From a virus, in the UHGV virus genome UHGV-0073937: DNA of 22,825 nucleotides, one strand, 5' to 3'. Positions 4,701-22,086 of this stretch are shown here, one piece after another. The notes under the pieces were generated by a model, which had not been told where the DNA came from, made no database searches, and saw only the letters and a list, made by a program, of their open reading frames with translations. Position 1 is the stretch's first letter; every line of letters begins with the position of its first letter. A program made the position numbers and the translations under genes.

Positions 4701-4882
4701 GGGTGGTTGTTGTTTAATTGTTTGGTATATCTAATTGATAAGTAAGGTGAAAATAAAATAAATACAACAACCTTACGATGTGCTTTGATGTCATTAATGT
4801 GAAAAAATTAAATGATATCAAATGGTTTTGTAAAAACACATGGTTGTTGTATCGCTTTTTATCGATGACTTATGGAGAGGAG

Positions 4883-7289: not shown

Positions 7290-7479
7290 ACTGCAGGCGC
7301 TGCGTCAGGCGCGCCTTGATTTATTAACCGGTAAACGGGTGGTGTCTGTCCAGAAAGATGGTCGCAGAATTGAATATACGGCTGCTTCTCTGGATGAGCT
7401 TAACCGGGCGATCAATGATGCGGAGTCGGTACTGGGGACAACCCGACGTCGCCGTCGTCCGCTGGGAGTGAGGTTATGA
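7273..7479 (+). CDS. W: Head-tail joining protein, lambda gpW-like
   Basis: 68 aa; LLTGKRVVSVQKDGRRIEYTAASL resembles lambda W; overlaps terL end and portal start as in lambda. Confidence 0.8.
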   Translation: MVTVAELQALRQARLDLLTGKRVVSVQKDGRRIEYTAASLDELNRAINDAESVLGTTRRRRRPLGVRL

Positions 7480-8348
7480 AACGAACGCCTGTCCTGATTG
7501 ATGTGAACGGTGTTCCGCTTCGTGAGAGTCTCAGCTACAACGGTGGCGGCGCAGGATTTGGCGGGCAAATGGCGGAGTGGTTGCCACCGGCGCAGAGTGC
7601 CGATGCGGCCCTGCTGCCCGCGTTGCGTCTGGGGAATGCCCGGGCAGATGATCTGGTGCGCAATAACGGAATAGCGGCTAATGCGGTTGCCCTGCATAAG
7701 GATCACATTGTCGGGCATATGTTTCTGATCAGCTACCGTCCGAACTGGCGCTGGCTGGGGATGCGGGAGACCGCAGCAAAAAGCTTTGTCGATGAGGTGG
7801 AGGCGGCCTGGTCGGAATACGCCGAAGGGATGTTTGGCGAGATCGACGTGGAAGGAAAACGCACGTTCACGGAATTTATCCGTGAAGGTGTGGGCGTTCA
7901 TGCGTTTAACGGCGAAATCTTTGTGCAGCCGGTCTGGGATACAGAAACCACGCAGTTATTCCGTACGCGTTTTAAAGCTGTGAGTCCGAAACGGGTGGAC
8001 ACGCCTGGACACGGTATGGGGAACCGTTTTCTGCGGGCCGGTGTGGAGGTCGATCGATATGGCCGTGCCGTCGCGTACCATATCTGTGAGGATGATTTTC
8101 CGTTCTCTGGTAGTGGACGATGGGAACGGATCCCGCGTGAACTTCCCACCGGGCGTCCGGCCATGCTGCATATTTTCGAGCCGGTGGAGGACGGGCAGAC
8201 CCGTGGGGCTAATCAGTTTTACAGCGTCATGGAACGGCTGAAGATGCTCGATTCCCTGCAGGCAACACAGCTTCAGTCGGCCATAGTGAAGGCGATTTAT
8301 GTCTATCATCTCACCGTAGTTGCCCGCATCGTTCGCCAACTCCACTGA
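7476..8348 (+). pseudogene. B: Portal protein (lambda gpB-like) N-terminal fragment, truncated by island insertion at ~8301
   Basis: First ~275 codons collinear with lambda gpB (GNARADDLVRNNG, FEPVEDGQTRGAN, QSAIVKA); after codon AIY the frame reads into unrelated sequence and stops at 8348. Confidence 0.85.
8289..8301. repeat. Left copy of 13-bp imperfect direct repeat (AAGGCGATTTATG) = putative att core (attL)
   Basis: Matches AAGGCGATGTATG at 18579-18591 (12/13); both copies lie exactly at the breakpoint in the portal reading frame. Confidence 0.65.
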
Positions 8349-8424
8349 AACCCTTGCTGCGTCTGGAATGTCGTTTTCCATACTTTTGATGACCGTTCAT
8401 CACCCTTCCAGTTTTTCGCGGTTT

Positions 8425-8478
8425 TGTGTATTGCAATGTGTATTGCAAATTGGCGATCGGGATGGGTGTGTATTGCAA
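8425..8478. repeat. Three copies of TGTGTATTGCAA (candidate integrase arm-type binding sites) upstream of int
   Basis: Perfect 12-mers at 8425-8436, 8437-8448, 8467-8478; two related copies (GTGTATTGCA) at 18483-18506 near other island end. Confidence 0.55.
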
Positions 8479-8496
8479 ATCTCTTGAGGGCTTTTA

Positions 8497-9738
8497 ATGG
8501 CTATTGAAAACAAACTCAGTGACAAACTGTTAAAGAGTCTTGTCGGAAAACGGCAGGACAAACAAAAAACAATAGCGGATGGGCGCGGGTTGTCTGTGCG
8601 TGTAAGCATGGTTGGGGGGATCAGCTTTGTTTTTTACTATCGTCTTGGTGGCAGGGAATCCCCTCCGGTATGGCTTACACTTGGTCGCTATCCTGACATG
8701 TCTCTTGCAACGGCCAGGCGCATGCGTGATCAGTGCCGTGAATGGCTGGCTGAAAATCTGGACCCCCGCAGGCAAATAAAACTTGCTGCCGAAAAAACTA
8801 TGCAACCAGTGACCGTAAGGGATGCGCTGTTTTACTGGTACGACAATCACGCCACAACAGCCAGAAAAGAGCATGAATATTTAATAAAACGATTTGAAAA
8901 GCATATCTTCCCCTATATCGGTGATATGGCTATAGAACAGTGCAAATTACACACATGGCTTACCGTCTTTGACAGGATCAAAAAAAATGCGCCTGTTATG
9001 TCTGGTGCAATTTTTCTTGATATCAAACAGGCGTTGCGTTTTTGTCGCGTCAGGCAATACATCGCGTGCGATCCCTTTGGAGATATTAACGTAAGTTATG
9101 TCGGGGGCTCATCCGGTATAAGGGATCGCGTTCTTAATATCAATGAAACCGCTGATGTATGGTCTTATGCTTACGGTAATAATTTGCTAACTCTGTCATC
9201 AATATATAACCGAAGAATAATGGTTATCTGCCTGGTGTTTGGTTGCCGACAGCAGGAGGCGAGGCTATCCACCTGGGACGAATGGGATTTAAAAAACTGG
9301 GTATGGACAGTCCCAAAAGAGCACAGCAAAAACAAGGAGGCTATAGTAAGGCCTGTTCCTGACGGAATAAAACAATGGATCGTTAATCTTTACGCAGAAA
9401 CAAAAAATCGCGGTTATGTTGTCGGTTGTGCTTTGCAAAGGGCGACAATAACAGGGGCTGCAAACAGAATATGCAGGCGTCTTGGTCATGATACTAATGG
9501 CTTGTGGTGCATACATGATTTCAGGCGCACATTTTCCACTACGCTTAATGATATGGGGGCGGATCCTTATATTGTCGAACTTCTTTTAGGTCATAAAGTG
9601 AAAGGGGTTGCTGGTGTTTACAATAAAAGCAGGCATATAAAGAAAAAACTTGAGGTGCTTAATATGTGGGTTAATTACCTTAATACGATAGCAGGATTTA
9701 ACAACAACGTTATCGAGCTTAATAAAGAGGTGGTGTGA
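8497..9738 (+). CDS. int: Tyrosine recombinase / integrase, P4-type
   Basis: 413 aa; N-terminal arm-binding-like region (GRGLSVRVS...GGISFVFYYR); C-terminal catalytic region with HDFRRTFST...LLGH...GVYNKS; adjacent to island boundary. Confidence 0.9.
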   Translation: MAIENKLSDKLLKSLVGKRQDKQKTIADGRGLSVRVSMVGGISFVFYYRLGGRESPPVWLTLGRYPDMSLATARRMRDQCREWLAENLDPRRQIKLAAEKTMQPVTVRDALFYWYDNHATTARKEHEYLIKRFEKHIFPYIGDMAIEQCKLHTWLTVFDRIKKNAPVMSGAIFLDIKQALRFCRVRQYIACDPFGDINVSYVGGSSGIRDRVLNINETADVWSYAYGNNLLTLSSIYNRRIMVICLVFGCRQQEARLSTWDEWDLKNWVWTVPKEHSKNKEAIVRPVPDGIKQWIVNLYAETKNRGYVVGCALQRATITGAANRICRRLGHDTNGLWCIHDFRRTFSTTLNDMGADPYIVELLLGHKVKGVAGVYNKSRHIKKKLEVLNMWVNYLNTIAGFNNNVIELNKEVV

Positions 9739-9739
9739 T

Positions 9740-9997
9740 ATGGCAATTTATTCTCTTGTTGATGAAAACGATTTGCGCACAATGAAGGACATTGATCGGT
9801 TCATTCGTGAAAAAGAGTGCATAGCACTTACCACGCTGGCAAACTCAACACGCTGGAAAATGGAGCAGGCAGGTAAATTCCCGCGACGTATCAAGATCGG
9901 TGAACGTGCTGCAGGGTATCGACTTTCAGAGGTTCAGGCATGGATCCGTGGTGAGTGGCATCCTGGATGGAAACCTGGAAAAACAAAACAGCAATAA
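9740..9997 (+). CDS. alpA: AlpA-family transcriptional regulator / excisionase-like protein
   Basis: 85 aa; HTH region IALTTLANSTRWKMEQAGKFPRRIKIGERAAGYRLSEVQAWI resembles AlpA/HTH_17; start ATG overlaps int stop (coupled). Confidence 0.7.
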   Translation: MAIYSLVDENDLRTMKDIDRFIREKECIALTTLANSTRWKMEQAGKFPRRIKIGERAAGYRLSEVQAWIRGEWHPGWKPGKTKQQ

Positions 9998-10010
9998 CCA
10001 GTAAATAATG

Positions 10011-10033
10011 CCCCTCATCACGAGGGGTTTTTT
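10011..10033 (+). terminator. Rho-independent terminator (CCCCTC-ATCAC-GAGGGG + T6)
   Basis: Perfect 6-bp GC stem then TTTTTTG immediately after alpA stop. Confidence 0.7.
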
Positions 10034-10053
10034 GTCTATAAGGTAAAAACGCG

Positions 10054-10632
10054 ATGAATAAAAATATTGCCGTGACGGGCAAGGGGTACGCTCGTCCAGT
10101 GAAAAAATTCTGCGATATTCGTGATCTCGTCGTTCTGCGCTTTGATAGTGTGAACGTTCGTGTGGTGTATCTGAACGGCGATCCGTGGTTTGTTGCAAAA
10201 GATGTTTGTGCTGCGCTGGAACTAACCAATTCGCGTACGGCGTTGCAGATGCTTGATGATGATGAAAAGGGAGTAAATTTAACTTACACCCCAGGAGGAA
10301 ATCAGAATATGAGAATTATCTCTGAGTCAGGTTTCTACAAACTAATAGCCCGCAGCCGCAAAGCAACGACGCCTGGCACATTTGCTCATCGTTTCAGTAA
10401 CTGGGTATTCAGAAATGTGATACCAGGTATCAGAAAAACGGGGACTTATGGTATCCCGTGGGGTGCATTACAGGATTTTTCCCGCCGTAAAGAGCAATAT
10501 CAAATAAGTGCCAGCGAGAAGGGGAGAGAGCTACAGGCATGTAAGCGCAAAAAGCGTGAGCTGGAGGAAGAAGAAAAAACGCTGATACGTGAATATCAGC
10601 CTGAGTTTTACTTTGGTAACCGCATTCAGTGA
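10054..10632 (+). CDS. Bro-N domain protein (putative antirepressor-like)
   Basis: 192 aa; N-terminal region (VVYLNGDPWFVAKDVCAALELTNSRTALQMLDDDEKG...RIISESGFYKLIARSRKATT...FSNWVFRNVIP) typical of Bro-N; charged coiled C-terminus. Confidence 0.65.
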   Translation: MNKNIAVTGKGYARPVKKFCDIRDLVVLRFDSVNVRVVYLNGDPWFVAKDVCAALELTNSRTALQMLDDDEKGVNLTYTPGGNQNMRIISESGFYKLIARSRKATTPGTFAHRFSNWVFRNVIPGIRKTGTYGIPWGALQDFSRRKEQYQISASEKGRELQACKRKKRELEEEEKTLIREYQPEFYFGNRIQ

Positions 10633-10661
10633 CAAAACAAAGGCGACCGGGGGCGGTCGCC
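10630..10661 (-). terminator. Hairpin terminator for leftward small-gene operon (GGCGACCG-GGGG-CGGTCGCC; T-rich on minus strand)
   Basis: 8-bp perfect GC-rich stem; minus-strand downstream sequence TTTGTTTTGTC; sits between convergent genes. Confidence 0.55.
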
Positions 10662-10725
10662 AGTGGGAAAACACTAAACATAAGCACGAGGATGATAGCC
10701 GCTATCAGGTTGGTGGGCAATGTGA

Positions 10726-10935
10726 TCAGCCTGGTGGGCGGTTCCTGTTAGCTTTCATTACCCGGGGCTGTTTATTGAGAAACTCATCAAGCGCAAATTT
10801 TGTAGGCGCTGGTTCTGTATTTGGTGGCATTTGTTTAGCGTGTGCCTTTTCTTTCTGGCGTGCAACAATGCTCTGTAAAAGCAATCTTCGTTGTTCTGCG
10901 AAAATCTCTTCAGTGGATAGGTATTTTTTGCTCAT
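10726..10935 (-). CDS. Hypothetical small protein (leftward switch operon, second gene)
   Basis: 69-aa ORF downstream of 10993..11172 on same strand, followed by hairpin terminator. Confidence 0.45.
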   Translation of the reverse strand: MSKKYLSTEEIFAEQRRLLLQSIVARQKEKAHAKQMPPNTEPAPTKFALDEFLNKQPRVMKANRNRPPG

Positions 10936-10992
10936 AGTGCCGACCTGTAAAGCAATGCGCCGGAGTACCTCACACCACAGCGCTGATAGTGA

Positions 10993-11172
10993 TTATTCTT
11001 GCTCTTTAGCCTTGCGTCGCTGGCGGTATTCAACTTCTCGCTTTAATGCTGCTGTTACAAACTGCCCTGTACTTTCACCAGGCATTTTTACCGCCTCAAC
11101 ATTGTTCATAACTTCATGCGGAACCCTTGCCGCAACTGTTTGTGATTTTGCGTTTACTGCTTTTGTCGCCAT
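10993..11172 (-). CDS. Small putative DNA-binding regulator (possible RHH-type repressor), first gene of leftward operon
   Basis: 59-aa ORF derived by manual translation (below ORF-track size cut-off): MATKAVNAKSQTVAARVPHEVMNNVEAVKMPGESTGQFVTAALKREVEYRQRRKAKEQE; diverges from operator repeats. Confidence 0.45.
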   Translation of the reverse strand: MATKAVNAKSQTVAARVPHEVMNNVEAVKMPGESTGQFVTAALKREVEYRQRRKAKEQE

Positions 11173-11222
11173 GTTGTGTACCCCTCACAAAAAACAAATG
11201 CAGTATGCAGGAAAAAAAACAA

Positions 11223-11274
11223 GTGTTCAACACTTGACGTGTTCAACACCTGGGTTTAAATTGGTGTTCAACAC
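11223..11274. promoter_or_regulatory. Operator/promoter region: three perfect copies of near-palindromic 11-mer GTGTTCAACAC with candidate rightward sigma70 promoter
   Basis: Copies at 11223-11233, 11239-11249, 11264-11274; TTGACG (11234-11239) and TTTAAAT (11255-11261) fit -35/-10 with ~16-nt spacer; lies between divergent operons. Confidence 0.65.
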
Positions 11275-11371
11275 CTTGTTGGTGCAAGGTGCAGAAACGA
11301 CGAAACCCGGCAGTGCGCTAACACTAACCGGGCTTCTAACCACCAACGATAGCAACAGTATCGAGGTAGCT

Positions 11372-11575
11372 ATGAGAAATCATACCACACACCCGCAAGG
11401 GCGGGGCTCGCACAACCTGAATAAATACATCTGGCGTTTTATCGCCCTGAGCACCGCACAACCACGCGTAATACACATCGAGGCCGCCAGCGAACAGGAA
11501 GCCCGGCTGCAATCCCCAACTGGCTGCGTGATGATATTCGCCGCCCGTATTCGTCAGGAGGTATGCCGTGCTTAA
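11372..11575 (+). CDS. Small protein, first gene of rightward operon (possibly Icd-like)
   Basis: 67 aa from ATG 11372 with SD GAGG; MRNHTTHPQGRGSHNLNKYIWRFIALSTAQPRVIHIEAASEQEARLQSPTGCVMIFAARIRQE; family assignment from memory only. Confidence 0.45.
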   Translation: MRNHTTHPQGRGSHNLNKYIWRFIALSTAQPRVIHIEAASEQEARLQSPTGCVMIFAARIRQEVCRA

Positions 11576-11753
11576 AACCTTTCGTGTATTTGCTCGTGCG
11601 GTTAACCCACTAGGCCACACAATTGGTATCGCTCAGAACGTGAAGGCTGTTAATGTTCAGACGGCTATTGCTGCGGTGAGAAGCGAATCATCAGAATATG
11701 GCTTATCACAAGTCATTATCTCAGCAGTGTATGAATTAAAAGAGGTGCATTAA
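11568..11753 (+). CDS. Hypothetical protein
   Basis: 61-aa ORF; start overlaps upstream stop (coupled), part of tightly packed operon. Confidence 0.4.
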   Translation: MLKTFRVFARAVNPLGHTIGIAQNVKAVNVQTAIAAVRSESSEYGLSQVIISAVYELKEVH

Positions 11754-11944
11754 TGCAGGAAATTACATTACACGAAGCCGCTGAACGTGCGCACCAGACA
11801 GAAATTGTTTGCCGCCTTCTTGAGTTATACCCGAACAAAATTACAGATGCTGATATATCCGCGCTGGCGAGCCTACTGGCGCGCCTTTCGGGAAGTGTCG
11901 CTAGTTTCCTGATTGAGGAAGAAAGTAAGCTGGTGGGGGATTAA
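11753..11944 (+). CDS. Hypothetical protein
   Basis: 63-aa ORF; ATG overlaps previous stop (TAATG). Confidence 0.4.
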   Translation: MQEITLHEAAERAHQTEIVCRLLELYPNKITDADISALASLLARLSGSVASFLIEEESKLVGD

Positions 11945-12166
11945 ATGAATACAGAACGAGAAGTCTTTTTTAAATTGTTAGCATGTGCAGAGAGTTCATT
12001 AACTTTAAATAATTCAGCAAAAGCAATATTAAATATGTGGCTTGATTGCATAAATGACAATGAAGATGCAAATATTGCTTATGGCCTGTTGTCACTTATT
12101 GATGAAGCAGCAGAGAAACTTAATGACACAATAAATAGTGCCCTGCTATCAAATAAGTCGAGTTAA
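11945..12166 (+). CDS. Hypothetical protein
   Basis: 73-aa ORF; start overlaps previous stop; AT-rich codon usage suggests separate origin. Confidence 0.4.
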   Translation: MNTEREVFFKLLACAESSLTLNNSAKAILNMWLDCINDNEDANIAYGLLSLIDEAAEKLNDTINSALLSNKSS

Positions 12167-12183
12167 GTCGAAGAATAAATAAT

Positions 12184-12483
12184 ATGGAAATGAAAAATTC
12201 TGGCTTTATTGCCAGCGGCCCCGCTCGGCCTGAATTTATGAACGGCGATATTTACCGCGATAAATACGGCGGCACGGTAACGATTAAAGGCGTGGCAGAA
12301 CGGCGCATCACTTACCGCCGTGAGGGGTATAGCTATGACTGCGTGATGCCTGTTTATCAGTTCCGGCGTGATTTTTCCCTGGTATATGCCGCACCCCGCA
12401 GTAAGCCCATCAGCAGGGAAAAAGCGCGGGGAAACATCCAGAAAATGAAAAGCATGATTAACGCATTCAGGGGCAAAAAATGA
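12184..12483 (+). CDS. Hypothetical protein
   Basis: 99-aa ORF; stop overlaps start of replication protein (ATGA). Confidence 0.45.
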   Translation: MEMKNSGFIASGPARPEFMNGDIYRDKYGGTVTIKGVAERRITYRREGYSYDCVMPVYQFRRDFSLVYAAPRSKPISREKARGNIQKMKSMINAFRGKK

Positions 12484-14231
12484 AACTGGCACCGAACTTA
12501 AAAAAACAGCCACGCGACAGACTGACAGAGGTAATCATCTTTGCAGGTAGTGATGCGTGGAGCCATGCGAAAGAGTGGCAGGAATGGGCGGGTAAACATA
12601 TTGCCGCCGACGATGTGCCGCCTGTCGTGCTGGCTGATGAGCAACTGAAAAACATCACCGATTACCGGATCATTGATGAAGATCGTCAGTGTGTGCGTGT
12701 TTACCGCGCAGGACATATCACAGAGCACAGCATGACGCAGATTGTTACGTTACTGGCTGTGGCTGGAGTGAAGACCGTACACGAATACGCGGGGATTACT
12801 GACACCAGCCCAGTGGATTTATCCGACCAGTTGCCGCGACTCAAAGAGGAATGCGAGCGTGGGGAAAGTCTGGTGCTTAATCTTCCGACGAAGCAAAAGG
12901 CGCAACTTTCACAGATGGCAGACAGTGAACGTGCACAACTACTTGCCGATCGCTTTGATGGTGTGTGTGTTCATGCAGAAAGTGAAATCGTCCACGTATG
13001 GCGCGGCGGGGTATGGTGTCCGGTCAGCACAATGGAGCTGAGCCGCGAAATGGTGGCGATCTATTCAGAGCACAGGGCCACGTTCAGCAAACGTGTAATC
13101 AATAACGCCGTGGAAGCGTTAAAAGTTATTGCCGACCCCATGGGGGAGCCGTCCAGTGATTTGCTACCGTTCACTAATGGTGTGCTTAACCTGAAAACGG
13201 GAGAATTTTCTCCGCACTCGCCGGAGCACTGGAGCACCACGCACAATGGCATTGAGTACACGCCACCAGTAGCAGGGGAAAACATCCGCGATAATGCGCC
13301 AAATTTCCATAAATGGCTTGAACATGCTGCAGGAAAAGACCCGCGCAAGATGATGCGTATATGTGCCGCGTTATACATGATTATGGCGAACCGCTACGAC
13401 TGGCAGATGTTCATTGAGGCCACCGGAGACGGGGGAAGCGGAAAGAGCACATTTACCCATATTGCCACCCTGCTTGCTGGCAAACAGAACACCGTAAGCG
13501 CAGAGATGACATCACTCGATGATGCAGGTGGGCGCGCGCAGGTTGTCGGGAGTCGTCTTATCGTCCTTGCCGATCAGCCGAAATATACGGGTGAAGGCAC
13601 TGGCATCAAGAAAATCACGGGAGGCGATCCCGTCGAAATTAACCCGAAATATGAGAAGCGATTCACGACGATAATAAGGGCGGTGGTACTGGCGACCAAT
13701 AACGACCCTATGATCTTTACCGAACGGGCCGGAGGTGTGTCACGCCGTCGGGTGATTTTCCGGTTCGACAACATTGTAAGGGAGGACGAAAAAGACAAGG
13801 AATTACCGGAAAAGATAGCGGCAGAAATCCCCGTAATTATCCGCCGCTTGCTGGCTAACTTTGCTGACCCTGAAAAGGCACGAGCTTTACTACTGGAACA
13901 GCGAGACGGTGATGAAGCTCTGGCAATAAAGCAGCAAACGGATCCGGTTGTTGAGCTTTGCGCGGCGCTGGAGTTTCTGGAGGAAGCTCGTGGGCTAATG
14001 ATGGGCGGTGGTGGTGACTCCGTGAAGTACACGACCAGAAACAGCCTTTACCGTGTCTATATGGCCTTCATGGCATACACAGGAAAGGGGAAATGTTTGA
14101 GCGTGAATGAGTTCGGAAAGGCTATGAGGTCAGCGGCGAAAGTTTACGGATATGAATATATTACTCGAAAAGTTAAGGGAGTCACGCAGACCAACGCAAC
14201 GACTACTGATGATTGCGATGCGTTTTTATAA
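12480..14231 (+). CDS. Replication protein: primase C-terminal/D5-N domain with SF3-type P-loop NTPase (pri-rep-like)
   Basis: 583 aa; Walker A GDGGSGKST, downstream Walker B-like RLIVLADQ; architecture typical of P4-alpha/PICI pri-rep proteins; followed by iterons. Confidence 0.8.
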   Translation: MKLAPNLKKQPRDRLTEVIIFAGSDAWSHAKEWQEWAGKHIAADDVPPVVLADEQLKNITDYRIIDEDRQCVRVYRAGHITEHSMTQIVTLLAVAGVKTVHEYAGITDTSPVDLSDQLPRLKEECERGESLVLNLPTKQKAQLSQMADSERAQLLADRFDGVCVHAESEIVHVWRGGVWCPVSTMELSREMVAIYSEHRATFSKRVINNAVEALKVIADPMGEPSSDLLPFTNGVLNLKTGEFSPHSPEHWSTTHNGIEYTPPVAGENIRDNAPNFHKWLEHAAGKDPRKMMRICAALYMIMANRYDWQMFIEATGDGGSGKSTFTHIATLLAGKQNTVSAEMTSLDDAGGRAQVVGSRLIVLADQPKYTGEGTGIKKITGGDPVEINPKYEKRFTTIIRAVVLATNNDPMIFTERAGGVSRRRVIFRFDNIVREDEKDKELPEKIAAEIPVIIRRLLANFADPEKARALLLEQRDGDEALAIKQQTDPVVELCAALEFLEEARGLMMGGGGDSVKYTTRNSLYRVYMAFMAYTGKGKCLSVNEFGKAMRSAAKVYGYEYITRKVKGVTQTNATTTDDCDAFL

Positions 14232-14239
14232 AAAATGGC

Positions 14240-14480
14240 AATGGTTATCTACCTTGTCTACCTGACTGAAAGAAAATACTTTTATTTCAATGTATTAATG
14301 CAGGTAGATAACTATTTTTCACTGTCTACCTGTTATCTACCTTATCTACCCATTTTTGTAGACAGGTAAGGAGACGGGTAGAGATGAGGTAGACAGCTAT
14401 TTGGGGCTGTCTACCTCCCTGAAACCCGCGCCATTACTGGCCTGATAACTAATCAGGTAGACAAGGTAGACAAGGTGGTG
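14240..14480. repeat. Iteron array (>=10 copies of GGTAGACA / TATCTACC in both orientations) = putative origin of replication
   Basis: e.g. TTATCTACCTTGTCTACC, CAGGTAGATAAC, CTGTCTACCTGTTATCTACCTTATCTACC, GGTAGACAAGGTAGACAAGG; non-coding, directly downstream of rep gene. Confidence 0.75.
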
Positions 14481-14520
14481 GCGCACAAAAAACTTTTTAA
14501 ACGAGGGGGTAAAAATAAAA

Positions 14521-14778
14521 ATGCACACATCAGGAAAACTGAACAAACATATAAAGCCACATTATCGCGCCCTTGATATGGCTGAACACTGGCTAAGGGT
14601 GGCGATTAAGGCAATAGACCGCAACGCCGGGGAAGGATACGCGAAAGCACATCCCGAACTGATAAGCGCATTCATGACAACGGCGGCTGCAAACTTTGCC
14701 GCGCTGACCGAACGGGAGATTGCCGAAGCGGAGGAAGTGACAACCATCAATATTAAGTCCGGAGAGCAGGCAGCTTGA
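14521..14778 (+). CDS. Hypothetical protein
   Basis: 85-aa ORF; stop overlaps SSB start. Confidence 0.45.
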   Translation: MHTSGKLNKHIKPHYRALDMAEHWLRVAIKAIDRNAGEGYAKAHPELISAFMTTAAANFAALTEREIAEAEEVTTINIKSGEQAA

Positions 14779-15224
14779 CGGCGCAAATAGCAGCTTACGG
14801 GCGGCTGGTGGACGACCCACAGGTAAAACATACCAGCAAGGGAGCACCCATGACACTGGCACGGATGACGGTATCTTTGCCATGCAGCCAGGCAGATGAC
14901 GGAACGGCGACGATGTGGTTATCTGTCCTGGCGTTTGGCAGACAAGCCGACGCGCTGGCAAAGCATCACAAAGGCGAACTCCTGAGCGTGGCGGGTAATA
15001 TGCAGGTGAGCCAGTGGAGCGGACAGAACGGGGAAACGCGGCAGGGCTGGCAGGTTATCGCAGACAGCGTAATCAGTGCCAGAACGGTGCGACCGGGCGG
15101 CAAAAAAGGTCAACAGGGGCAGGCTACTGATGCACTGAACAGAGCAAAACAACAGGCAGATCAGCAAGGAAGCCATCCACCAGTGGGAGATAATGAGCAA
15201 TGGGGAGATGATATTCCGTTTTAA
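14775..15224 (+). CDS. ssb: Single-stranded DNA-binding protein homologue (SSB-like, TTG start)
   Basis: 149 aa; OB-fold-like N-terminus; Gln/Gly-rich linker; C-terminal acidic tip GDDIPF matching the SSB DDDIPF tail; SD GGAGAG 8 nt upstream of TTG. Confidence 0.75.
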   Translation: MTAQIAAYGRLVDDPQVKHTSKGAPMTLARMTVSLPCSQADDGTATMWLSVLAFGRQADALAKHHKGELLSVAGNMQVSQWSGQNGETRQGWQVIADSVISARTVRPGGKKGQQGQATDALNRAKQQADQQGSHPPVGDNEQWGDDIPF

Positions 15225-15243
15225 ATTCTGCAAACAAAAAGAT

Positions 15244-15268
15244 GCCGGAAAAAAATAGATTTTCCGGC
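15244..15268. terminator. Hairpin (GCCGGAAAA...TTTTCCGGC), possible terminator after ssb
   Basis: 9-bp inverted repeat; T-run better on minus strand so orientation ambiguous. Confidence 0.4.
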
Positions 15269-15435
15269 ATGCTACATAAATCCCGACCAAAGGAAGTAAA
15301 TACATTAACACGAATTATCAGCACTGAAGTTGTCACGGCATATTTTATACAACATTGCACTTGGTTGCATGTATTCGCATAGCAGACATCGGTAATAGAA
15401 TATATTCACAATTATTTGTAATGAATGTAAAGAGG

Positions 15436-16482
15436 ATGAGTATGGTTGATTTATATTCGCCTACACAGCTTGTGCAGGTGGCTAATGCTGAAGATGTGCA
15501 AAAAAAATTAAATGCGTTGTTTACCAGTTTGTTTTTCACTCGCTCGGTAATGTTTGAATCGAGAGACATTATTCTTGATACGATCGACGATCCAAATATC
15601 CCGATCGCGGCGTTTTGCTCTCCTATGGTGGGCAGTAAAGTTTCACGAGATGAGGGATACGAATCAAAAACAATTCGCCCTGGCTATATGAAACCGAAAA
15701 GCAGCATTGATCCAAATAAGTTAGCTGTGCGCCCTGCTGGTGTATCACCTGAACAATACAATGCTTTTGGGGCGCGTAATATTAAAGTTAAACAGGCGAT
15801 TGTAAATCAGGCTAAAGCTATACGTGCACGTATTGAATGGCTTGCTGTTCAGGCAATCACAACGGGGAAAAATATCATTGAGGGCGATGGTATTGAACGT
15901 TATGAACTGGACTGGAATATAAAACCACAAAATATTATCACGCAGTCTGGCGGTGCTGAGTGGTCAGGTAAGGATAAAGAAACTTTTGATCCAAATGATG
16001 ATATTGAGAGCTACGCAGAATTTAGTGAGGGCGTCACTAATATCATCATTATGGGCGGTAATGTATGGAAGAAATACCGTTCATTCAGAGCGATAAAAGA
16101 GGCTCTGGATACCCGCCGTGGTTCTAATTCCGAACTGGAAACGGCCCTTAAAGACCTTGGTGATTCGGTGAGTTTTAAAGGGTATATGGGCGATGTTGCG
16201 ATTGTTGTTTACAGCGGACGTTATACCGACGAGGACGGAACTGAAAAACATTTCCTTGATCCTGATTTGATGGTGCTTGGCAATACGGCTCTTCAGGGGA
16301 TTGTCGCCTATGGCGGTATTCAGGATCCGGAGCTAATCCGAATGGGGCTGACTAAAGCCGAACTTGCACCGAAAAACTATATTGTGCCTGGTGATCCGGC
16401 TATTGAATATGTGCAGACACATTCAGCACCACAGCCAATACCGGCCCGCATCAATCGTTTTGTTACCGTTCGCATTGGCTAA
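15436..16482 (+). CDS. Major capsid protein, divergent lambda gpE homologue (island-encoded)
   Basis: 348 aa; collinear similarity with lambda E across C-terminal two-thirds (NIITQSGGAEWSGKDKETFDPNDDIE, DTRRGSNSELETALKDLG, YMGDVAIVVYSG, LMVLGNTA, VPGDPAIE); start MSMVDLY parallels lambda MSMYTTA; start could be 15442. Confidence 0.85.
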   Translation: MSMVDLYSPTQLVQVANAEDVQKKLNALFTSLFFTRSVMFESRDIILDTIDDPNIPIAAFCSPMVGSKVSRDEGYESKTIRPGYMKPKSSIDPNKLAVRPAGVSPEQYNAFGARNIKVKQAIVNQAKAIRARIEWLAVQAITTGKNIIEGDGIERYELDWNIKPQNIITQSGGAEWSGKDKETFDPNDDIESYAEFSEGVTNIIIMGGNVWKKYRSFRAIKEALDTRRGSNSELETALKDLGDSVSFKGYMGDVAIVVYSGRYTDEDGTEKHFLDPDLMVLGNTALQGIVAYGGIQDPELIRMGLTKAELAPKNYIVPGDPAIEYVQTHSAPQPIPARINRFVTVRIG

Positions 16483-16491
16483 GGGGGAGCA

Positions 16492-16833
16492 ATGGCTACT
16501 CATTACACTGAACTCATGGCTGGCACTGAAGCACTGGTGACTACGCTGGGGATATTTTCAGCTAATAAAGGGGTAATTCCTGCATTTACGCCACTGATGC
16601 AGGAAGATGCAACAGGTGCACTGGTGGTATGGGATGGTTCGAGCGTAGGTAAAGCGGTTTATGTTTCCGCTGTACAAATCGACACAGCGAAAAAAACACA
16701 GGCACAGGTTTATAAGACAGGTGTTTTAAATGTTGATGCTCTGAACTGGCCTGAGTCTGTAAAAGAACTGTCGGCAAAGGTTGCCGCGTTTGTTGGCTCA
16801 GGTATTTCTGTTCAGCCGCTGGCTCGTGTGTAA
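16492..16833 (+). CDS. Head decoration protein, divergent lambda gpD homologue (island-encoded)
   Basis: 113 aa; VVWDGSSVGKAVYVSAVQIDT...YKTGVLNVDALNWPES parallels lambda [22 protein letters not shown]...[16 protein letters not shown]; strong SD AAGGGGGAG. Confidence 0.75.
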   Translation: MATHYTELMAGTEALVTTLGIFSANKGVIPAFTPLMQEDATGALVVWDGSSVGKAVYVSAVQIDTAKKTQAQVYKTGVLNVDALNWPESVKELSAKVAAFVGSGISVQPLARV

Positions 16834-16844
16834 AGGGGGATACA

Positions 16845-17228
16845 ATGCAGAATCATTACAATGACCTTAAGCCAATTGCCGAAATGATGTATCCGGATCC
16901 AGCAGTAGAGGAATTAAAGGCTATTGCTGACAAAATGCGTTTAAGTGAACGCCTTGTTGATATGAATCAGGTGATGGAACTTACTACCCTTAGCCGTCGC
17001 ACATTGCTAAACCTTGAGGCTCGCGGAGAGTTCCCCGAACGCGTACAGGTTACGGAAGGGCGTAAGGCCTGGTATTTAAGTGAAGTGATCGACTGGATAA
17101 ACAATATTCCTCGATCTTCTGAATATTGCCGCGTACCTGTCCCAAAAAAGCCAGATGCGGCGCTATGCCTCAAGATTGAGCGTGTACGTCGCAATGCACG
17201 GGATGGTCGCTATAAGTTGATTGGTTGA
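16845..17228 (+). CDS. AlpA-like HTH domain protein immediately upstream of island cos
   Basis: 127 aa; central HTH resembling AlpA/HTH_17 (MNQVMELTTLSRRTLLNLEARGEFPERVQVTEGRKAWYLSEVIDWI); strong SD. Confidence 0.55.
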   Translation: MQNHYNDLKPIAEMMYPDPAVEELKAIADKMRLSERLVDMNQVMELTTLSRRTLLNLEARGEFPERVQVTEGRKAWYLSEVIDWINNIPRSSEYCRVPVPKKPDAALCLKIERVRRNARDGRYKLIG

Positions 17229-17254
17229 TGAAATTAGGGCCCGTTCTGGCTGGC

Positions 17255-17330
17255 GGGTCCTTTCCGGCGATCCGGTAGGCTACGGGGCGGCGACCTTGCG
17301 GGTTTTCGCTATTTATGAGCCTTTTTCGGG
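17255..17330 (+). other. cos: Lambda-type cos site 2 (island cos): cosN GGGCGGCGACCT at 17285-17296
   Basis: ~65 bp (17255-17319) near-identical to 4625-4688 including cosQ/cosN; downstream cosB-equivalent sequence differs from cos 1. Confidence 0.8.
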
Positions 17331-17429
17331 TGCTGGTGGTGGTTTTGTTGTTCGCTCTATCTCTATGAATAAAAAGGAAAAGATAAAGCCAATACACCAA
17401 CCTGAAACATTACTTAAGTGGGGATATTG

Positions 17430-17972
17430 ATGAAATCGCACCTGATGAACAAAAAAAACATGGCGCAAAGCTGCCGTGTAAGTGCGACAGCGTTCGACAA
17501 GTGGGGAGTGACTCCCGTTGAACGTAAAGGCCGCGAGGCGTTTTATGATGTTGCCAGCGTAATAGACAATCGGGTTAGCAATGCAATTAACCAGATTACA
17601 GACGACAAAGGCGAGATTGATGATGATGAACTCCTACGAGTCAGGATCAGATTGCTGACAGCACAGGCAGAGGCGCAGGAGCTTAAAAACGAGCGCGAAC
17701 GCGGCGACGTTATTGATACAGCGTTTTGTATATACGTGCTTTCAAAATTGGCGAGTCAGATTTCTTCAATCATGGACAGCCTGCCGCTTGCCATGACAAG
17801 GAAGTTTCCCGACATGAAGCCGTCTATGCTGGATGGACTGAAAAAAGAAGTTATCAGAGCCTGTAACGCATGCGCAAAACTTGACGAAAACATACCGCTG
17901 ATGCTGTCCGATTATCTGATGGAAACTGCCGGAAACGTACCGGATAAGTTGCAGCCGAATAAAGATAAGTAA
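17430..17972 (+). CDS. Terminase small subunit, divergent Nu1-like (island-encoded)
   Basis: 180 aa from ATG 17430; homologous to 4883..5389 product and lambda Nu1 (ATAFDKWGVTPVERKGREAFYDV; AFCIYVLSKLASQISSIMDSLPLAMTRKFPDM) but clearly divergent. Confidence 0.85.
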   Translation: MKSHLMNKKNMAQSCRVSATAFDKWGVTPVERKGREAFYDVASVIDNRVSNAINQITDDKGEIDDDELLRVRIRLLTAQAEAQELKNERERGDVIDTAFCIYVLSKLASQISSIMDSLPLAMTRKFPDMKPSMLDGLKKEVIRACNACAKLDENIPLMLSDYLMETAGNVPDKLQPNKDK

Positions 17973-17983
17973 CGTAGTACGCT

Positions 17984-18286
17984 ATGACTGAATCCGAAAT
18001 ACTGCGATTAATCCGCCGTGCTTGTGGAATCAGCAAGCAGCATGACGAACAGGCCACGCAGCCGGACAGCGTGACCGCAGATAATTATGTGCGTGTAGTG
18101 GCTGAGGTGATGCGCCGTGACGGTATTGAGCTTAACGGCGTGGATATGCGCAACATACGAACAAGAGTCCTTGAGTTGCTGGCATATCGTCGCCGTAATG
18201 ATGATTCAGCCCACCAGCCAAATCAGCACAGCAACGACAGAATAGCCCGACACAGAAAAACCACGAATATGGGGTTTTTGTTATGA
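17984..18286 (+). CDS. Hypothetical protein (last island gene)
   Basis: 100-aa ORF; Arg-rich; no recognised motif. Confidence 0.4.
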   Translation: MTESEILRLIRRACGISKQHDEQATQPDSVTADNYVRVVAEVMRRDGIELNGVDMRNIRTRVLELLAYRRRNDDSAHQPNQHSNDRIARHRKTTNMGFLL

Positions 18287-18482
18287 CATGGTCATGATGA
18301 CCACTCATACAAAACAGGTAAAGCCCACCAGCCTGATTAAAGGTTAACCGGAAAAAAGCCAGGTATCCAATCTCGATATGGGGATCCCTATATCGACATT
18401 AACGCCCACTAAAACTGTGCATATATGCATAGAAAAAGCATCCACCAGCTTTATGACGGATGCCGCTCATCTTATAAATAAT

Positions 18483-18506
18483 CGTGTATTGCAGTGTGTA
18501 TTGCGA
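18483..18506. repeat. Two copies of GTGTATTGCA-type repeat near right island end (candidate arm sites)
   Basis: CGTGTATTGCAGTGTGTATTGCGA; same motif as 8425-8478. Confidence 0.5.
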
Positions 18507-18578
18507 CTCCTTTAAACGATAGGTCTGAGCATTCGTAATGTACTGTTTTTAAATTTTATTTTTTCCTGTCTTTTCATA

Positions 18579-18591
18579 AAGGCGATGTATG
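18579..18591. repeat. Right copy of 13-bp direct repeat (AAGGCGATGTATG) = putative att core (attR)
   Basis: 12/13 match to 8289-8301; portal reading frame (KAMYAATIESEL) resumes exactly here. Confidence 0.65.
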
Positions 18592-19336
18592 CCGCCACCA
18601 TTGAGAGTGAGCTGGATACGCAGTCAGCGATGGATTTTATTCTGGGCGCGAACAGTCAGGAGCAGCGGGAAAGGCTGACCGGCTGGATTGGTGAAATTGC
18701 CGCGTATTACGCCGCAGCACCGGTCCGGCTGGGAGGCGCAAAAGTGCCGCACCTGATGCCGGGTGACTCACTGAACCTGCAGGCTACTCCGTGTTTGAGC
18801 AGTCACTGCTGCGGTATATCGCTGCCGGGCTGGGTGTCTCGTATGAGCAGCTTTCCCGGAATTACGCCCAGATGAGCTACTCCACGGCACGGGCCAGCGC
18901 GAACGAGTCGTGGGCGCACTTTATGGGGCGGCGAAAATTCGTCGCATCCCGTCAGGCGAGTCAGATGTTTCTGTGCTGGCTGGAAGAGGCCATCGTTCGC
19001 CGCGTGGTGACGTTACCTTCAAAAGCGCGCTTCAGTTTTCAGGAAGCCCGTAGTGCCTGGGGGAACTGCGACTGGATAGGCTCCGGTCGTATGGCCATCG
19101 ATGGTCTGAAAGAAGTTCAGGAAGCGGTGATGCTGATAGAAGCCGGACTGAGCACCTACGAGAAAGAGTGCGCGAAACGCGGTGACGACTATCAGGAAAT
19201 TTTTGCCCAGCAGGTCCGTGAAACGATGGAGCGCCGCGCGGCTGGTCTTAAACCGCCCGCCTGGGCGGCTGAGGCATTTGAATCCGGGCTGCGACAATCA
19301 ACAGAGGAGGAGAAGAGTGACAGCAGAGCTGCGTAA
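18579..19336 (+). pseudogene. B: Portal protein (lambda gpB) C-terminal fragment, additionally frameshifted near 18767-18790
   Basis: MYAATIESELDTQSAMDFILGANSQEQRERLTGWIGEIAAYY... then frame change; second frame continues VFEQSLLRYIAAGLGVSYEQL... to the overlap with C; matches lambda gpB C-terminus. Confidence 0.85.
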
Positions 19337-20636: not shown

Positions 20637-20645
20637 GGGATGTTT

Positions 20646-20978
20646 ATGACGAGCAAAGAAACCTTTACCCATTACCAGCCGCTGGGCAACAGTGACCCGG
20701 CTCATACCGCAACCGCGCCCGGCGGATTGAGTGCGACAGCGCCTGCAATGACCCCGCTGATGCTGGACACCTCCACCCGTAAGCTGGTTGCATGGGATGG
20801 CACCACCGACGGTGCTGCTGTTGGCATTCTGGCGGTTGCTGCTGACCAGACCAGCACCGCGCTGACGTTCTACAAGTCCGGCACGTTCCGTTATGAGGAT
20901 GTGCTCTGGCCGGAGGCTGCCAGCGACGAGACGAAAAAACGGACCGCGTTTGCCGGAACGGCAATCAGCATCGTTTAA
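20646..20978 (+). CDS. D: Lambda gpD head decoration protein
   Basis: 110 aa [27 protein letters not shown]... near-identical to lambda D. Confidence 0.95.
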
Positions 20979-20996
20979 CCTTACCCTTCATCACTA

Positions 20997-21021
20997 AAGG
21001 CCGCCTGTGCGGCTTTTTTTA
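20997..21021 (+). terminator. Hairpin + T-run between D and E (GGCCGC-CTGT-GCGGC + T7)
   Basis: GC stem followed by TTTTTTT; may act as attenuating terminator or RNA stability element. Confidence 0.5.
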
Positions 21022-21033
21022 CGGGATTTTTTT

Positions 21034-22059: not shown

Positions 22060-22061
22060 TC

Positions 22062-22086
22062 ATGGCCCTTCGGGGCCATTTTCTCT
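22062..22086 (+). terminator. Hairpin after E (ATGGCCC-TTCG-GGGCCAT + T-rich)
   Basis: 7-bp perfect stem with TTCG loop followed by TTTCTCTC. Confidence 0.45.

What the first reader, a model, noticed from the sequence alone, without database searches (positions are those of the whole stretch)
8289..18591. A ~10.3-kb integrase-bearing satellite-like island inserted inside the portal gene of a lambda-like prophage
The lambda B-like portal ORF runs collinearly from 7476 to codon ...QSAIVKAIY at ~8301, then reads into unrelated sequence. Portal sequence resumes in frame (KAMYAATIESEL...) at 18579. The two breakpoints carry a 13-bp imperfect direct repeat (AAGGCGATTTATG / AAGGCGATGTATG), and a P4-type tyrosine integrase sits ~200 bp inside the left end. 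The intervening DNA has a satellite-like gene set (int, alpA, bro, switch, pri-rep plus iterons, ssb, capsid genes, cos, terS) and lacks terL, portal, protease and tail genes. A satellite that targets a structural gene of its own presumptive helper, rather than a tRNA or host gene, is unusual: it would silence the helper portal while integrated, and excision could restore it. I am not aware of a described family matching this, but novelty cannot be judged without a database search.
Basis: partly seen in the sequence, partly recalled or inferred. Interest (0 to 1): 0.95.

Follow-up and report, generated by a model that had tools for sequence, protein, structure and literature searches.

The report
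Known satellite embedded in prophage portal gene
A 10.3-kb phage satellite really does sit inside the portal gene of a lambda-like prophage, but this "helper-embedded PICI" at this exact portal site was already described and catalogued in 2023, so the window is one more copy of a known element.

Summary
A lambda B-type portal gene is split at an 8-bp identity block, AAGGCGAT (8289-8296 and 18579-18586). A co-oriented 10,290-bp island lies between the halves. It carries int, alpA, bro, a primase-helicase, iterons, ssb, gpE-like and gpD-like capsid genes, its own cos and a Nu1-like terS.

The same attR junction occurs in 59 of 5,426 complete E. coli genomes. More than 3,100 genomes carry the uninterrupted portal site.

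It is not new. Tommasini, Mageeney & Williams 2023 (NAR Genom Bioinform 5:lqad036) named these helper-embedded PICIs (HE-PICIs). Their site B:Phage_portal_2:241 has the identity block "aaggcgat", and one of their attR strings matches window 18529-18648 letter for letter. The family's doubled TGTATTGC attP motif, its four-zone gene order and a 54%-identical relative of the founding integrase are all present.

It has been shown experimentally only for a capsid-gene HE-PICI.

This copy has two peculiarities: a 22-bp frameshifting deletion in the portal 3' half, and left and right helper flanks from two different head-gene lineages. The window is a whole metagenome contig at 3.6x coverage, so either could be an assembly artefact.

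The parts
4625..4773 (+). Helper prophage cos region (cosQ/cosN; 12-nt cohesive-end sequence GGGCGGCGACCT at 4655-4666)
   Evidence: Read directly. It is 79% identical over 150 nt to the island cos. It lies just upstream of the helper Nu1 gene.
4778..7479 (+). Helper packaging genes: Nu1-like terS (ORF 4778-5389), gpA terL (ORF 5304-7289), gpW (7273-7479)
   Evidence: Pfam hits to Phage_Nu1, GpA_ATPase plus GpA_nuclease, and gpW. This is the A-type lineage: 96-100% identical to the SF-173 and EC28 prophages.
7476..8296 (+). Helper portal gene, 5' fragment (274 codons plus 2 nt), A-type lineage
   Evidence: Pfam Phage_portal_2 positions 2-239 of 354. It is 98.8% identical to the uninterrupted SF-173 portal. 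The ORF runs on into the island and stops at 8348.
8289..8296 (+). attL core (identity block AAGGCGAT)
   Evidence: Exact 8-bp repeat. It is the same identity block the paper lists for B_Phage_portal_2_241.
8425..8477 (+). attP P'-arm: doubled motif tgTGTATTGCaatgTGTATTGCa (8425-8447) plus a third half-site (core 8469-8476)
   Evidence: TGTATTGC occurs 6 times in the window against 0.98 expected. The doubled copy starts 132 bp from the core centre, matching the published 132 +/- 2.
8497..9738 (+). HE-PICI tyrosine integrase (413 aa)
   Evidence: Pfam Arm-DNA-bind_3, Phage_int_M and Phage_integrase. It is 98.3% identical to the integrase of the portal-embedded island in SCU-106 and 53.6% identical over its full length (E 7e-170) to the founding 11capE integrase.
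9740..9997 (+). alpA (excisionase/regulator), followed by a terminator-like hairpin at 10010-10028
   Evidence: Pfam Phage_AlpA, 5e-14. The hairpin is the first + strand terminator-like site downstream of the portal fragment.
10054..10632 (+). Bro-N family protein (Bro zone)
   Evidence: Pfam Bro-N, 5e-20. PHROG anti-repressor, 4e-85.
10993..11172 (-). YlcI/YnfO family small protein (divergent, variable Bro/immunity zone)
   Evidence: NCBIfam NF041551, 2e-16.
11372..11575 (+). Icd-like host cell division inhibitor
   Evidence: NCBIfam NF033153, 1.5e-19.
11568..12483 (+). Three small conserved ORFs (11568-11753, 11753-11944, 11945-12166) and a DUF4222 protein (12184-12483)
   Evidence: PHROGs 3672, 1478, 2196 and 285. 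Pfam DUF4222.
12480..14231 (+). Primase-helicase (D5_N / DUF5906 / Pox_D5), replication zone
   Evidence: Pfam.
14246..14472 (.). Iteron field, presumptive satellite origin of replication
   Evidence: Nine copies of AGGTAGAYA in both orientations, all within this 227 bp, against 0.12 expected in the whole window.
14521..15224 (+). Conserved ORF (14521-14778) and ssb (called 14850-15224)
   Evidence: PHROG 1231. Pfam SSB. Gene call from the source record.
15442..16833 (+). Late zone: gpE-like major capsid protein (15442-16482) and gpD-like decoration protein (16492-16833)
   Evidence: Pfam Phage_cap_E, 5e-41, and HDPD, 4e-15. They are only 42% and 38% identical to the helper's own E and D.
16845..17228 (+). 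Second AlpA-family HTH protein (127 aa) just upstream of the island cos
   Evidence: Pfam Phage_AlpA, 1e-8. PDB 8c3t, AlpA family, 8e-11. PHROG 2790.
17255..17403 (+). Island cos site (cosN GGGCGGCGACCT at 17285-17296; the cosB side diverges from the helper's)
   Evidence: 79% identical over 150 nt to the helper cos, with an identical 12-nt cosN.
17430..17972 (+). Island Nu1-like small terminase (180 aa)
   Evidence: Pfam Phage_Nu1, 3.5e-24. PHROG 57 terS, 3e-51. 46% identical to the helper Nu1 over 166 aa. The exact protein is on record in 5,609 blocks of the assembly collection.
17984..18286 (+). Conserved ORF of unknown function (100 aa)
   Evidence: PHROG 1561.
18483..18505 (+). attP P-arm: doubled motif cgTGTATTGCagtgTGTATTGCg
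   Evidence: The cores lie 98 and 86 bp before the core centre.
18579..18586 (+). attR core (AAGGCGAT)
   Evidence: Window 18529-18648 is identical to the published attR of Eco10269.11.B_Phage_portal_2_241.
18587..19336 (+). Helper portal gene, 3' fragment, B-type (lambda-like) lineage, with a 22-bp deletion after about 18781 that shifts the frame
   Evidence: Alignment to SCU-106. The reconstructed ORF stops at codon 370; restoring the 22 bp gives 530 aa. No complete genome shares the deletion. The frameshift product is on record only in this contig.
19317..22499 (+). Helper head genes downstream: C (S49 protease, 439 aa), D, E and FI, B-type lineage
   Evidence: Pfam and gene calls. 95-100% identical to the SCU-106 helper but only 55-70% to EC28 and SF-173.

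Best explanation
The island is a helper-embedded phage-inducible chromosomal island (HE-PICI) of the published group that targets site B:Phage_portal_2:241 in the lambda-B-type portal gene of lambdoid prophages.

Shown here. Its tyrosine integrase recombined an attP with the portal sequence AAGGCGAT. That attP has the 8-bp core flanked by doubled TGTATTGC arm motifs. The island carries no replacement portal sequence, so the helper portal gene is split for as long as the island is integrated. All the main island genes point the same way as the helper late operon. No terminator-like site separates the portal fragment from int-alpA. The island has its own replication module (primase-helicase, iterons, SSB). 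It has gpE-like and gpD-like capsid and decoration genes that are only about 40% identical to the helper's. It has its own cos, with an identical cosN and a divergent cosB side, and a Nu1-type TerS 46% identical to the helper's. It lacks terL, portal, protease, tail and lysis genes.

Inferred from the published model and from the experiments on the capsid-site relative 11capE. On prophage induction the composite excises and replicates. Helper late transcription reads into int-alpA. The satellite then excises precisely, rejoining the portal gene late. The satellite TerS directs the helper gpA terminase to the satellite cos, and satellite DNA is packaged into heads built with helper portal, protease and tails. 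Helper yield is delayed or reduced as a result.

Specific to this copy. As the sequence stands, the rejoined portal would be an A/B-lineage hybrid with a frameshift. This composite is then either a stranded satellite in a defective helper or a flawed low-coverage assembly.
For: Insertion and boundaries.

Recurrence in independent complete genomes and abundant empty sites.

Literature identity: Tommasini et al. 2023 (PMC10111431) define HE-PICIs, list B:Phage_portal_2:241 with identity block aaggcgat, and print an attR identical to window 18529-18648. The family is cited as established by Ares-Arroyo et al. 2024 and Moura de Sousa et al. 2023.

Family hallmarks in the window:
- Doubled TGTATTGC motif on both attP arms, with the downstream copy at +132.
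- Integrase 54% identical to the 11capE integrase and 98% identical to another portal-embedded copy.
- Integration, Bro, Replication and Late zones in order.
- Late zone 94% identical to that of 11capE.

In-frame rejoining at the core. No + strand terminator-like site before 10010. Own cos and terS. Iterons.
Against: Nothing contradicts family membership.

The mechanism has not been demonstrated for portal-site HE-PICIs. The only induction experiment (mitomycin C, qPCR and read counts) was on the capsid-site element 11capE, and no virions were recovered.

In this window the portal cannot be restored as sequenced.

The upstream doubled motif spans -100 to -78 from the core centre. That matches the published '81 +/- 2' only approximately, depending on where the motif is anchored.

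No C4 or isrK immunity RNA of the kind reported for some HE-PICIs was found.
Confidence: 0.93

Rival explanations
1. The satellite here is stranded. The surrounding prophage is a decayed or recombinant remnant whose portal can no longer be restored (22-bp deletion; N-terminal half from one portal lineage, C-terminal half from another). The resident prophage is then no longer a working helper, and the island can move only if another lambdoid phage supplies portal, protease, terL and tails.
For: The 22-bp deletion truncates the rejoined portal at codon 370. The left flank is A-type and the right flank B-type. Many other copies sit in visibly decayed helpers, with IS insertions, deletions or a frameshifted int. 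The paper also notes truncated helpers and 'abandoned' HE-PICIs.
Against: Both peculiarities are seen only in this 3.56x metagenome contig and may not be real. Every other helper late gene visible in the window is an intact ORF.
Confidence: 0.4
2. The A-type/B-type flank pairing, and possibly the 22-bp deletion, are artefacts of a low-coverage metagenome assembly. Two E. coli prophages in the sample each carry an HE-PICI with identical int-alpA-bro sequence, and the assembler joined them through this shared repeat.
For: The window is the whole of NODE_417_length_22825_cov_3.56 from ENA ERZ1745601. It is 100% identical to an A-type contig (L011) from 4801 to about 11600. It is 100% identical to a B-type composite (L026) from 8301 to 18800. 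The two share 100%-identical sequence across 8301-10800. All ten other copies with both flanks visible are A/A or B/B.
Against: A real homologous recombinant between two co-resident composites would look exactly the same. A 22-bp deletion is not a typical short-read error. The source record is reported for 2 samples.
Confidence: 0.5
3. The whole insertion is an assembly chimera, or a chance 13-bp repeat between unrelated sequences.
For: The contig has low coverage.
Against: The same attR junction is present in 59 complete genomes, and full composites are annotated in several finished chromosomes. The site is published, with identical att strings.
Confidence: 0.01
4. The island is an ordinary small temperate phage, a P4-like satellite or a capsid-forming PICI that landed in the portal gene by accident (off-target integration).
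For: It carries a P4-type integrase, a D5/P4-alpha-like primase and its own capsid genes.
Against: It has no lysis, tail, terL, portal, protease or head-tail connector genes, and no sid, psu or delta homologue among its ORFs. The site recurs with a site-specific integrase and a conserved attP architecture. The integrase is 98% identical in other portal-embedded copies.
Confidence: 0.02

Closest known systems
HE-PICI group B:Phage_portal_2:241 (e.g. Eco10269.11.B_Phage_portal_2_241, Eco14781.11...; Tommasini, Mageeney & Williams 2023, NAR Genom Bioinform 5:lqad036)
   Same: Same target gene and codon. Same 8-bp identity block aaggcgat, with an attR string identical over 120 nt. Same size class (about 11 kb). 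Same doubled TGTATTGC attP motif, same gene order and same co-orientation with the helper late operon.
   Different: Nothing at family level. This copy is 10.29 kb against about 10.9 kb for the commonest genotype. It has its own mosaic of Bro, replication and ssb variants, a 22-bp deletion in the portal 3' half and mismatched helper flanks.
Eco567.11capE in E. coli NRG857c (founding HE-PICI, site E:Phage_cap_E:80)
   Same: The integrase is 54% identical over its full length. The late zone 14568-17317 (ssb, capsid E and D, AlpA-like HTH, cos) is 94% identical. The zone order is the same. The window's island body also occurs with a 99.5%-identical 11capE integrase inside capsid genes (L027, L032, L035).
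   Different: 11capE targets the major capsid gene, not the portal. It lacks terS and carries a HEPN/DUF262 pair where this island has terS and a 100-aa ORF. It is the only HE-PICI with experimental excision data.
EcCICFT073 and other Gram-negative PICIs (Fillol-Salom et al. 2018, 2019)
   Same: An int-alpA, replication and late-gene layout of about 10 kb, lambdoid cos helpers, and a satellite cos with a phage-like cosN but a different cosB.
   Different: EcCICFT073 sits at a chromosomal site and redirects packaging with Rpp, which binds the helper TerS. This island is inside the helper and encodes a full Nu1-type TerS. No sequence match to any PDB chain other than an AlpA-family protein was found for the HTH protein next to cos.
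SaPI-type terS strategy (Staphylococcus pac SaPIs)
   Same: The satellite encodes its own small terminase, which would pair with the helper large terminase and recognise satellite DNA. For this island that role is inferred.
   Different: SaPIs use headful (pac) packaging and are Gram-positive, chromosomal and unrelated in sequence. Here packaging would be at cos.
Regulated gene integrity / 'active lysogeny' elements (e.g. skin in B. subtilis sigK, phi10403S in Listeria comK)
   Same: A mobile element splits a gene, and its precise excision restores the gene at a defined time. The paper draws this parallel.
   Different: The interrupted gene belongs to another mobile element (the helper phage), and the regulation would serve the satellite rather than the cell.
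Capsid-forming PICIs (cf-PICIs) and P4-like satellites
   Same: A satellite with its own capsid-related genes (cf-PICI). A P4-type integrase and an alpha-like primase (P4).
   Different: The island has no portal, protease, connector or terL genes, which cf-PICIs have. It has no sid, psu or delta, which P4-like satellites have.

Membership tests
HE-PICI (helper-embedded PICI, Tommasini et al. 2023) | [quoted passage not shown] | tested here: met
   The portal gene is split at 8296/18579. Flanking genes are Nu1, gpA and gpW upstream and C, D, E and FI downstream. All the main island genes are on the + strand.
HE-PICI (helper-embedded PICI, Tommasini et al. 2023) | One of the catalogued sites, with the matching identity block (B:Phage_portal_2:241, aaggcgat) | tested here: met
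   The core is AAGGCGAT. The portal fragment ends at Pfam profile position 239 of 354 in the current profile. The attR is identical to the published Eco10269 attR.
HE-PICI (helper-embedded PICI, Tommasini et al. 2023) | Primary tyrosine integrase belonging to the clade of the 11capE integrase | tested here: inconclusive
   53.6% identity over 412 aa, 470 bits, to the 11capE integrase. 98.3% identity to the integrase of the portal-embedded SCU-106 island. Only 37% to the integrase of a chromosomal PICI with the same late zone. No phylogenetic tree was built, so clade placement rests on pairwise identity plus site coherence.
HE-PICI (helper-embedded PICI, Tommasini et al. 2023) | Doubled attP motif tgTGTATTGCantgTGTATTGCa, one copy on each side of the crossover (published 81 +/- 2 upstream, 132 +/- 2 downstream) | tested here: met
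   Cores lie at -98 and -86 and at +134 and +146 (plus +176) from the core centre. The downstream doubled motif starts at +132. The upstream copy spans -100 to -78, so agreement with '81' depends on the anchor used. The motif is absent from the related chromosomal PICI L031.
HE-PICI (helper-embedded PICI, Tommasini et al. 2023) | attP carries no replacement sequence, so the target late gene is disrupted | tested here: met
   The portal ORF stops 17 codons into the island. The island has no portal-like sequence; its only similarity to the helper is at cos and the capsid gene.
HE-PICI (helper-embedded PICI, Tommasini et al. 2023) | Four ordered zones: Integration (int, alpA), Bro, Replication, Late | tested here: met
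   The order is int, alpA; Bro-N, YlcI/YnfO, Icd-like; DUF4222, primase, iterons, SSB; capsid E, D, HTH, cos, terS.
HE-PICI (helper-embedded PICI, Tommasini et al. 2023) | Precise excision after helper induction, restoring the late gene | not testable with these tools
   Rejoining at the core is in frame in silico. Experimental data exist only for 11capE. In this copy a 22-bp deletion would still truncate the portal.
Gram-negative PICI | About 10-kb island with inward-facing int plus alpA and a primase/replication module, lacking lysis and tail genes, and packaged through a cos site | tested here: met
Gram-negative PICI | Induction and high-frequency transfer by a helper phage | not testable with these tools
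Capsid-forming PICI (cf-PICI) | Complete head module (capsid, protease, portal, head-tail connectors, terS/terL) | tested here: not met
   Only the major capsid protein, the decoration protein and terS are present.
P4-like satellite | Capsid-size and helper-control genes sid, psu, delta and epsilon, with P2-type helpers | tested here: not met
   No such family was hit among the island ORFs in Pfam, NCBIfam or PHROGs. The helper is lambda-type.

The most novel reading that the evidence does not exclude
If the contig is correctly assembled, this copy is a natural recombinant. An HE-PICI shared by two divergent lambdoid prophages served as a stretch of portable homology that joined the terminase/gpW/portal-N arm of one head-gene lineage to the portal-C/protease/capsid arm of another, about 65% identical. 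Helper-embedded satellites would then be hotspots that reshuffle helper late operons and create hybrid structural genes on excision. The 2023 paper only hints at a related role, in its remarks on late-gene capture.
Probability: 0.25. Interest if true: 0.4.

Novelty: already known. Interest (0 to 1): 0.17.

Why it matters
The phenomenon itself is interesting. A parasite of a virus hides inside an essential structural gene of that virus and controls when the gene becomes whole again. But it was published in 2023, together with this exact portal site and about a hundred catalogued copies.

What this window adds:
- An independent rediscovery from raw sequence.
- Confirmation that the portal-site element is common: 59 of 5,426 complete E. 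coli genomes carry the attR junction, and its TerS is on record in 5,609 blocks of public assemblies.
- A reminder that the portal-site group has never been tested experimentally.
- One possibly recombinant copy, whose reality depends on a 3.6x-coverage assembly.

Tried and rejected
- Assembly chimera as the explanation for the insertion: rejected, because the same junctions occur in dozens of finished genomes.

- Rfam search for the C4/isrK immunity RNAs reported in some HE-PICIs. Nothing reached gathering threshold in the window or E<=1 in 9900-12300. The only hit was a sub-threshold symR-like match.

- Rpp-type packaging redirection as in EcCICFT073. The HTH protein next to cos matched only an AlpA-family PDB chain, and the terS matched no PDB chain. 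I could not support an Rpp assignment and favour the island's own TerS.

- Search of the phage genome collection for the island: no megablast match.

- Hypothesis that the A/B flank pairing is one product of an inversion between two composites, with the reciprocal product visible in strain VL7S7. Rejected: the second VL7S7 locus is an IS911-truncated island remnant in another A-type prophage, and the full VL7S7 composite is A/A.

- Search for other genomes sharing the 22-bp deletion: none among complete genomes, and only the source contig in the assembly index.

- My first literature searches with PICI, portal and satellite terms did not surface the key paper. It was found through a citation in a 2024 essay.

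Full report
**What is in the sequence**

The ORF at 7476-8348 is a lambda-B-type portal up to ...LQSAIVKA, then reads 17 unrelated codons and stops. Pfam Phage_portal_2 aligns its residues 29-275 to profile positions 2-239 of 354. Portal sequence resumes at 18579 as KAMYAATIESELD....

The two breakpoints share an exact 8-bp block, AAGGCGAT, at 8289-8296 and 18579-18586. Uninterrupted portals read AAGGCGATGTATG.

**More than chance, and not a chimera**

- In 5,426 complete E. coli genomes the island is covered at 80% or more in 52.
- The attR junction is present in 59. In about 3,100 others the portal match begins exactly at 18579.
- On the left, portal matches end at 8301.
- The reconstructed empty site is uninterrupted in 3,119 genomes.
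- In SCU-106, Ch1, EC28 and VL7S7, PGAP annotates two portal pseudogene halves around the same gene set.

**Anatomy of the island**

All the main genes are on the + strand, the same orientation as the helper late operon. In order:

- Tyrosine integrase, 8497-9738 (Arm-DNA-bind_3 plus Phage_integrase).
- alpA, 9740-9997.
- A terminator-like hairpin at 10010-10028. It is the first such + strand site after the portal fragment.
- Bro-N protein, 10054-10632.
- A divergent YlcI/YnfO gene (minus strand) and an Icd-like gene.
- Three small conserved ORFs.
- DUF4222, then a D5_N/DUF5906 primase-helicase at 12480-14231.
- Nine AGGTAGAYA iterons in 14246-14472, against 0.12 expected in the window.
- ssb.
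- A gpE-like major capsid gene and a gpD-like decoration gene.
- A second AlpA-family HTH protein.
- A cos site at 17255-17403.
- A Nu1-type terS, 17430-17972.
- A 100-aa ORF.

The island cos has the same 12-nt cosN, GGGCGGCGACCT, as the helper cos at 4655-4666, but diverges on the cosB side. The island TerS, capsid and decoration proteins are 46%, 42% and 38% identical to the helper's Nu1, E and D. The island has no terL, portal, protease, tail or lysis gene.

The helper context is a typical lambdoid late region: holin, lysozyme, Rz, a cold-shock gene, cos, Nu1, gpA, gpW, the split portal, S49 protease C, D, E and FI.

**It is already described**

My first literature searches missed it. [quoted passage not shown]

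That paper:

- Defines HE-PICIs.
- Maps 491 of them to 14 sites in nine lambda-cognate late genes, including three portal sites and one putative further site.
- Shows that their integrases form one clade, with subclades matching the sites.
- Reports a doubled attP motif, tgTGTATTGCantgTGTATTGCa, unique to HE-PICIs.
- Describes four ordered zones: Integration, Bro, Replication, Late.

Its supplementary table lists roughly a hundred ~11-kb elements named ...B_Phage_portal_2_241, with the identity block "aaggcgat". Most are in E. coli prophages at tRNA-Arg or icd. The printed attR of Eco10269.11.B_Phage_portal_2_241 is identical to window 18529-18648.

**Membership tests done here**

- The TGTATTGC core occurs six times in the window against 0.98 expected. 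Five of the six lie in the two att arms.
- In the reconstructed attP, the downstream doubled motif starts 132 bp from the core centre, as published. The upstream one spans -100 to -78, roughly matching the published 81.
- The integrase is 53.6% identical over its full length to the founding 11capE integrase fetched from NRG857c. It is 98.3% identical to that of the SCU-106 portal-embedded island.
- The late zone 14568-17317 is 94% identical to that of 11capE.
- A chromosomal PICI with a 99%-identical late zone (L031) has a 37%-identical integrase and no TGTATTGC motif. This fits the paper's claim that the motif is specific to HE-PICIs.

I did not build an integrase tree.

**Mechanism, and which parts are shown**

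Shown from sequence:
- The portal gene is disrupted and no replacement sequence is supplied.
- The rejoin at the core is in frame.
- The island is co-oriented with the late operon, with no terminator-like site before int-alpA.
- The satellite has its own ori, cos and terS.

Inferred from the 11capE induction experiment and from PICI biology:
- The composite excises and replicates on SOS induction.
- Helper late transcription drives int-alpA.
- Late satellite excision restores the portal.
- The satellite TerS recruits helper gpA to the satellite cos.
- Packaging uses helper portal, protease and tails.

Nobody has shown excision or transfer for a portal-site HE-PICI, and no virions were obtained even for 11capE.

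**Peculiarities of this copy**

1. The portal 3' half lacks 22 bp after about 18781 compared with SCU-106. The rejoined ORF therefore ends at codon 370; restoring the 22 bp gives 530 aa. No complete genome shares the deletion. The frameshift product is on record only in the source contig.

2. The flanks do not match each other. The left flank (about 5900-8296) is 96-100% identical to the SF-173 and EC28 "A-type" head-gene lineage, and only about 65% to SCU-106. The right flank (18579 onward) is 95-100% identical to the SCU-106 "B-type" lineage, and about 65% to EC28 and SF-173.

The HE-PICI occurs in both lineages. In ten other copies with both flanks visible, the flanks are always A/A or B/B.

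The window is 100% identical to an A-type contig (L011) from 4801 to about 11600. It is 100% identical to a B/B composite (L026) from 8301 to 18800. The two overlap in a 100%-identical int-alpA-bro stretch.

The window is the whole of a metagenome contig, NODE_417_length_22825_cov_3.56 (ENA ERZ1745601). I therefore cannot distinguish a genuine homologous recombinant between two composite prophages from a chimeric join through a shared repeat. A predicted reciprocal product in VL7S7 turned out to be an IS911-truncated island remnant.

**Verdict**

The element is a member of a known family at a known site. The novelty claim fails. The idea that excision could restore the portal does not hold for this copy as sequenced. 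Interest is low for discovery purposes. The only open lead is whether embedded satellites promote recombination between divergent helpers, and that rests on one low-coverage contig.

Noticed in passing
window 18760-18800 (junction about 18781/18782): There is a 22-bp deletion (GACGGCTCAGGACACGGATAAT in SCU-106) in the portal 3' fragment. It shifts the frame, so even a precisely rejoined portal would stop at codon 370. It is not seen in any of 5,426 complete genomes, and the frameshift product is on record only in this contig.
   Followed up: yes
window 4801-8296 versus 18579-22825: The helper flanks belong to two lambdoid head-gene lineages. The left arm is A-type (EC28, SF-173, L011) and the right arm is B-type (SCU-106, L026). 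The switch lies at attL or inside the shared, identical int-alpA-bro stretch. It is either a real recombinant or a chimeric join in a 3.56x metagenome contig.
   Followed up: partly
L027, L032, L035 (capsid gene E site) and L031 (chromosome, between cspD and clpS): The same satellite body (replication, ssb, late zone; 93-99% identical) occurs with a different int-alpA module. With a 99.5% 11capE-type integrase it sits inside the capsid gene. With a 37%-identical integrase, and no TGTATTGC motif, it sits at a chromosomal site. Swapping the integration module retargets the same satellite.
   Followed up: partly
L018, L020, L021, L023, L024, L025: Many portal-site copies sit in decayed composites. 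The lesions include IS insertions, deletions that fuse or remove island or helper genes, and a frameshifted integrase. This agrees with the paper's remark on truncated helpers and abandoned HE-PICIs.
   Followed up: no
window 11299-11371 (- strand): A candidate structured RNA lies just upstream of the Icd-like gene. It gives a sub-threshold Rfam symR match (32.9 bits against a gathering score of 61, E 8.6e-4). It folds at -37.3 kcal/mol, z = -4.4 against shuffles. Its 48-nt core is 98% conserved in 11capE. It may be the immunity or antisense RNA of the Bro zone. No C4 or isrK match was found.
   Followed up: partly
window 2291-2706 (+): An Rfam cspA thermoregulator (113.7 bits, above gathering) precedes a 71-aa cold-shock-domain gene (2445-2660) in the helper prophage, between the lysis genes and cos.
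   Followed up: no
window 17430-17972: The island's exact 180-aa TerS sequence is on record in 5,609 blocks of the public assembly collection. That is far more than the A-type attL fusion protein (130 blocks) or this ssb variant (91 blocks), so the late-zone module is very widespread among E. coli satellites.
   Followed up: no
L003 9737-11453 (NRG857c 11capE): Where this island carries terS and a 100-aa ORF, 11capE carries a HEPN-domain and DUF262 gene pair on the opposite strand. This may be a defence cargo slot next to attR.
   Followed up: no
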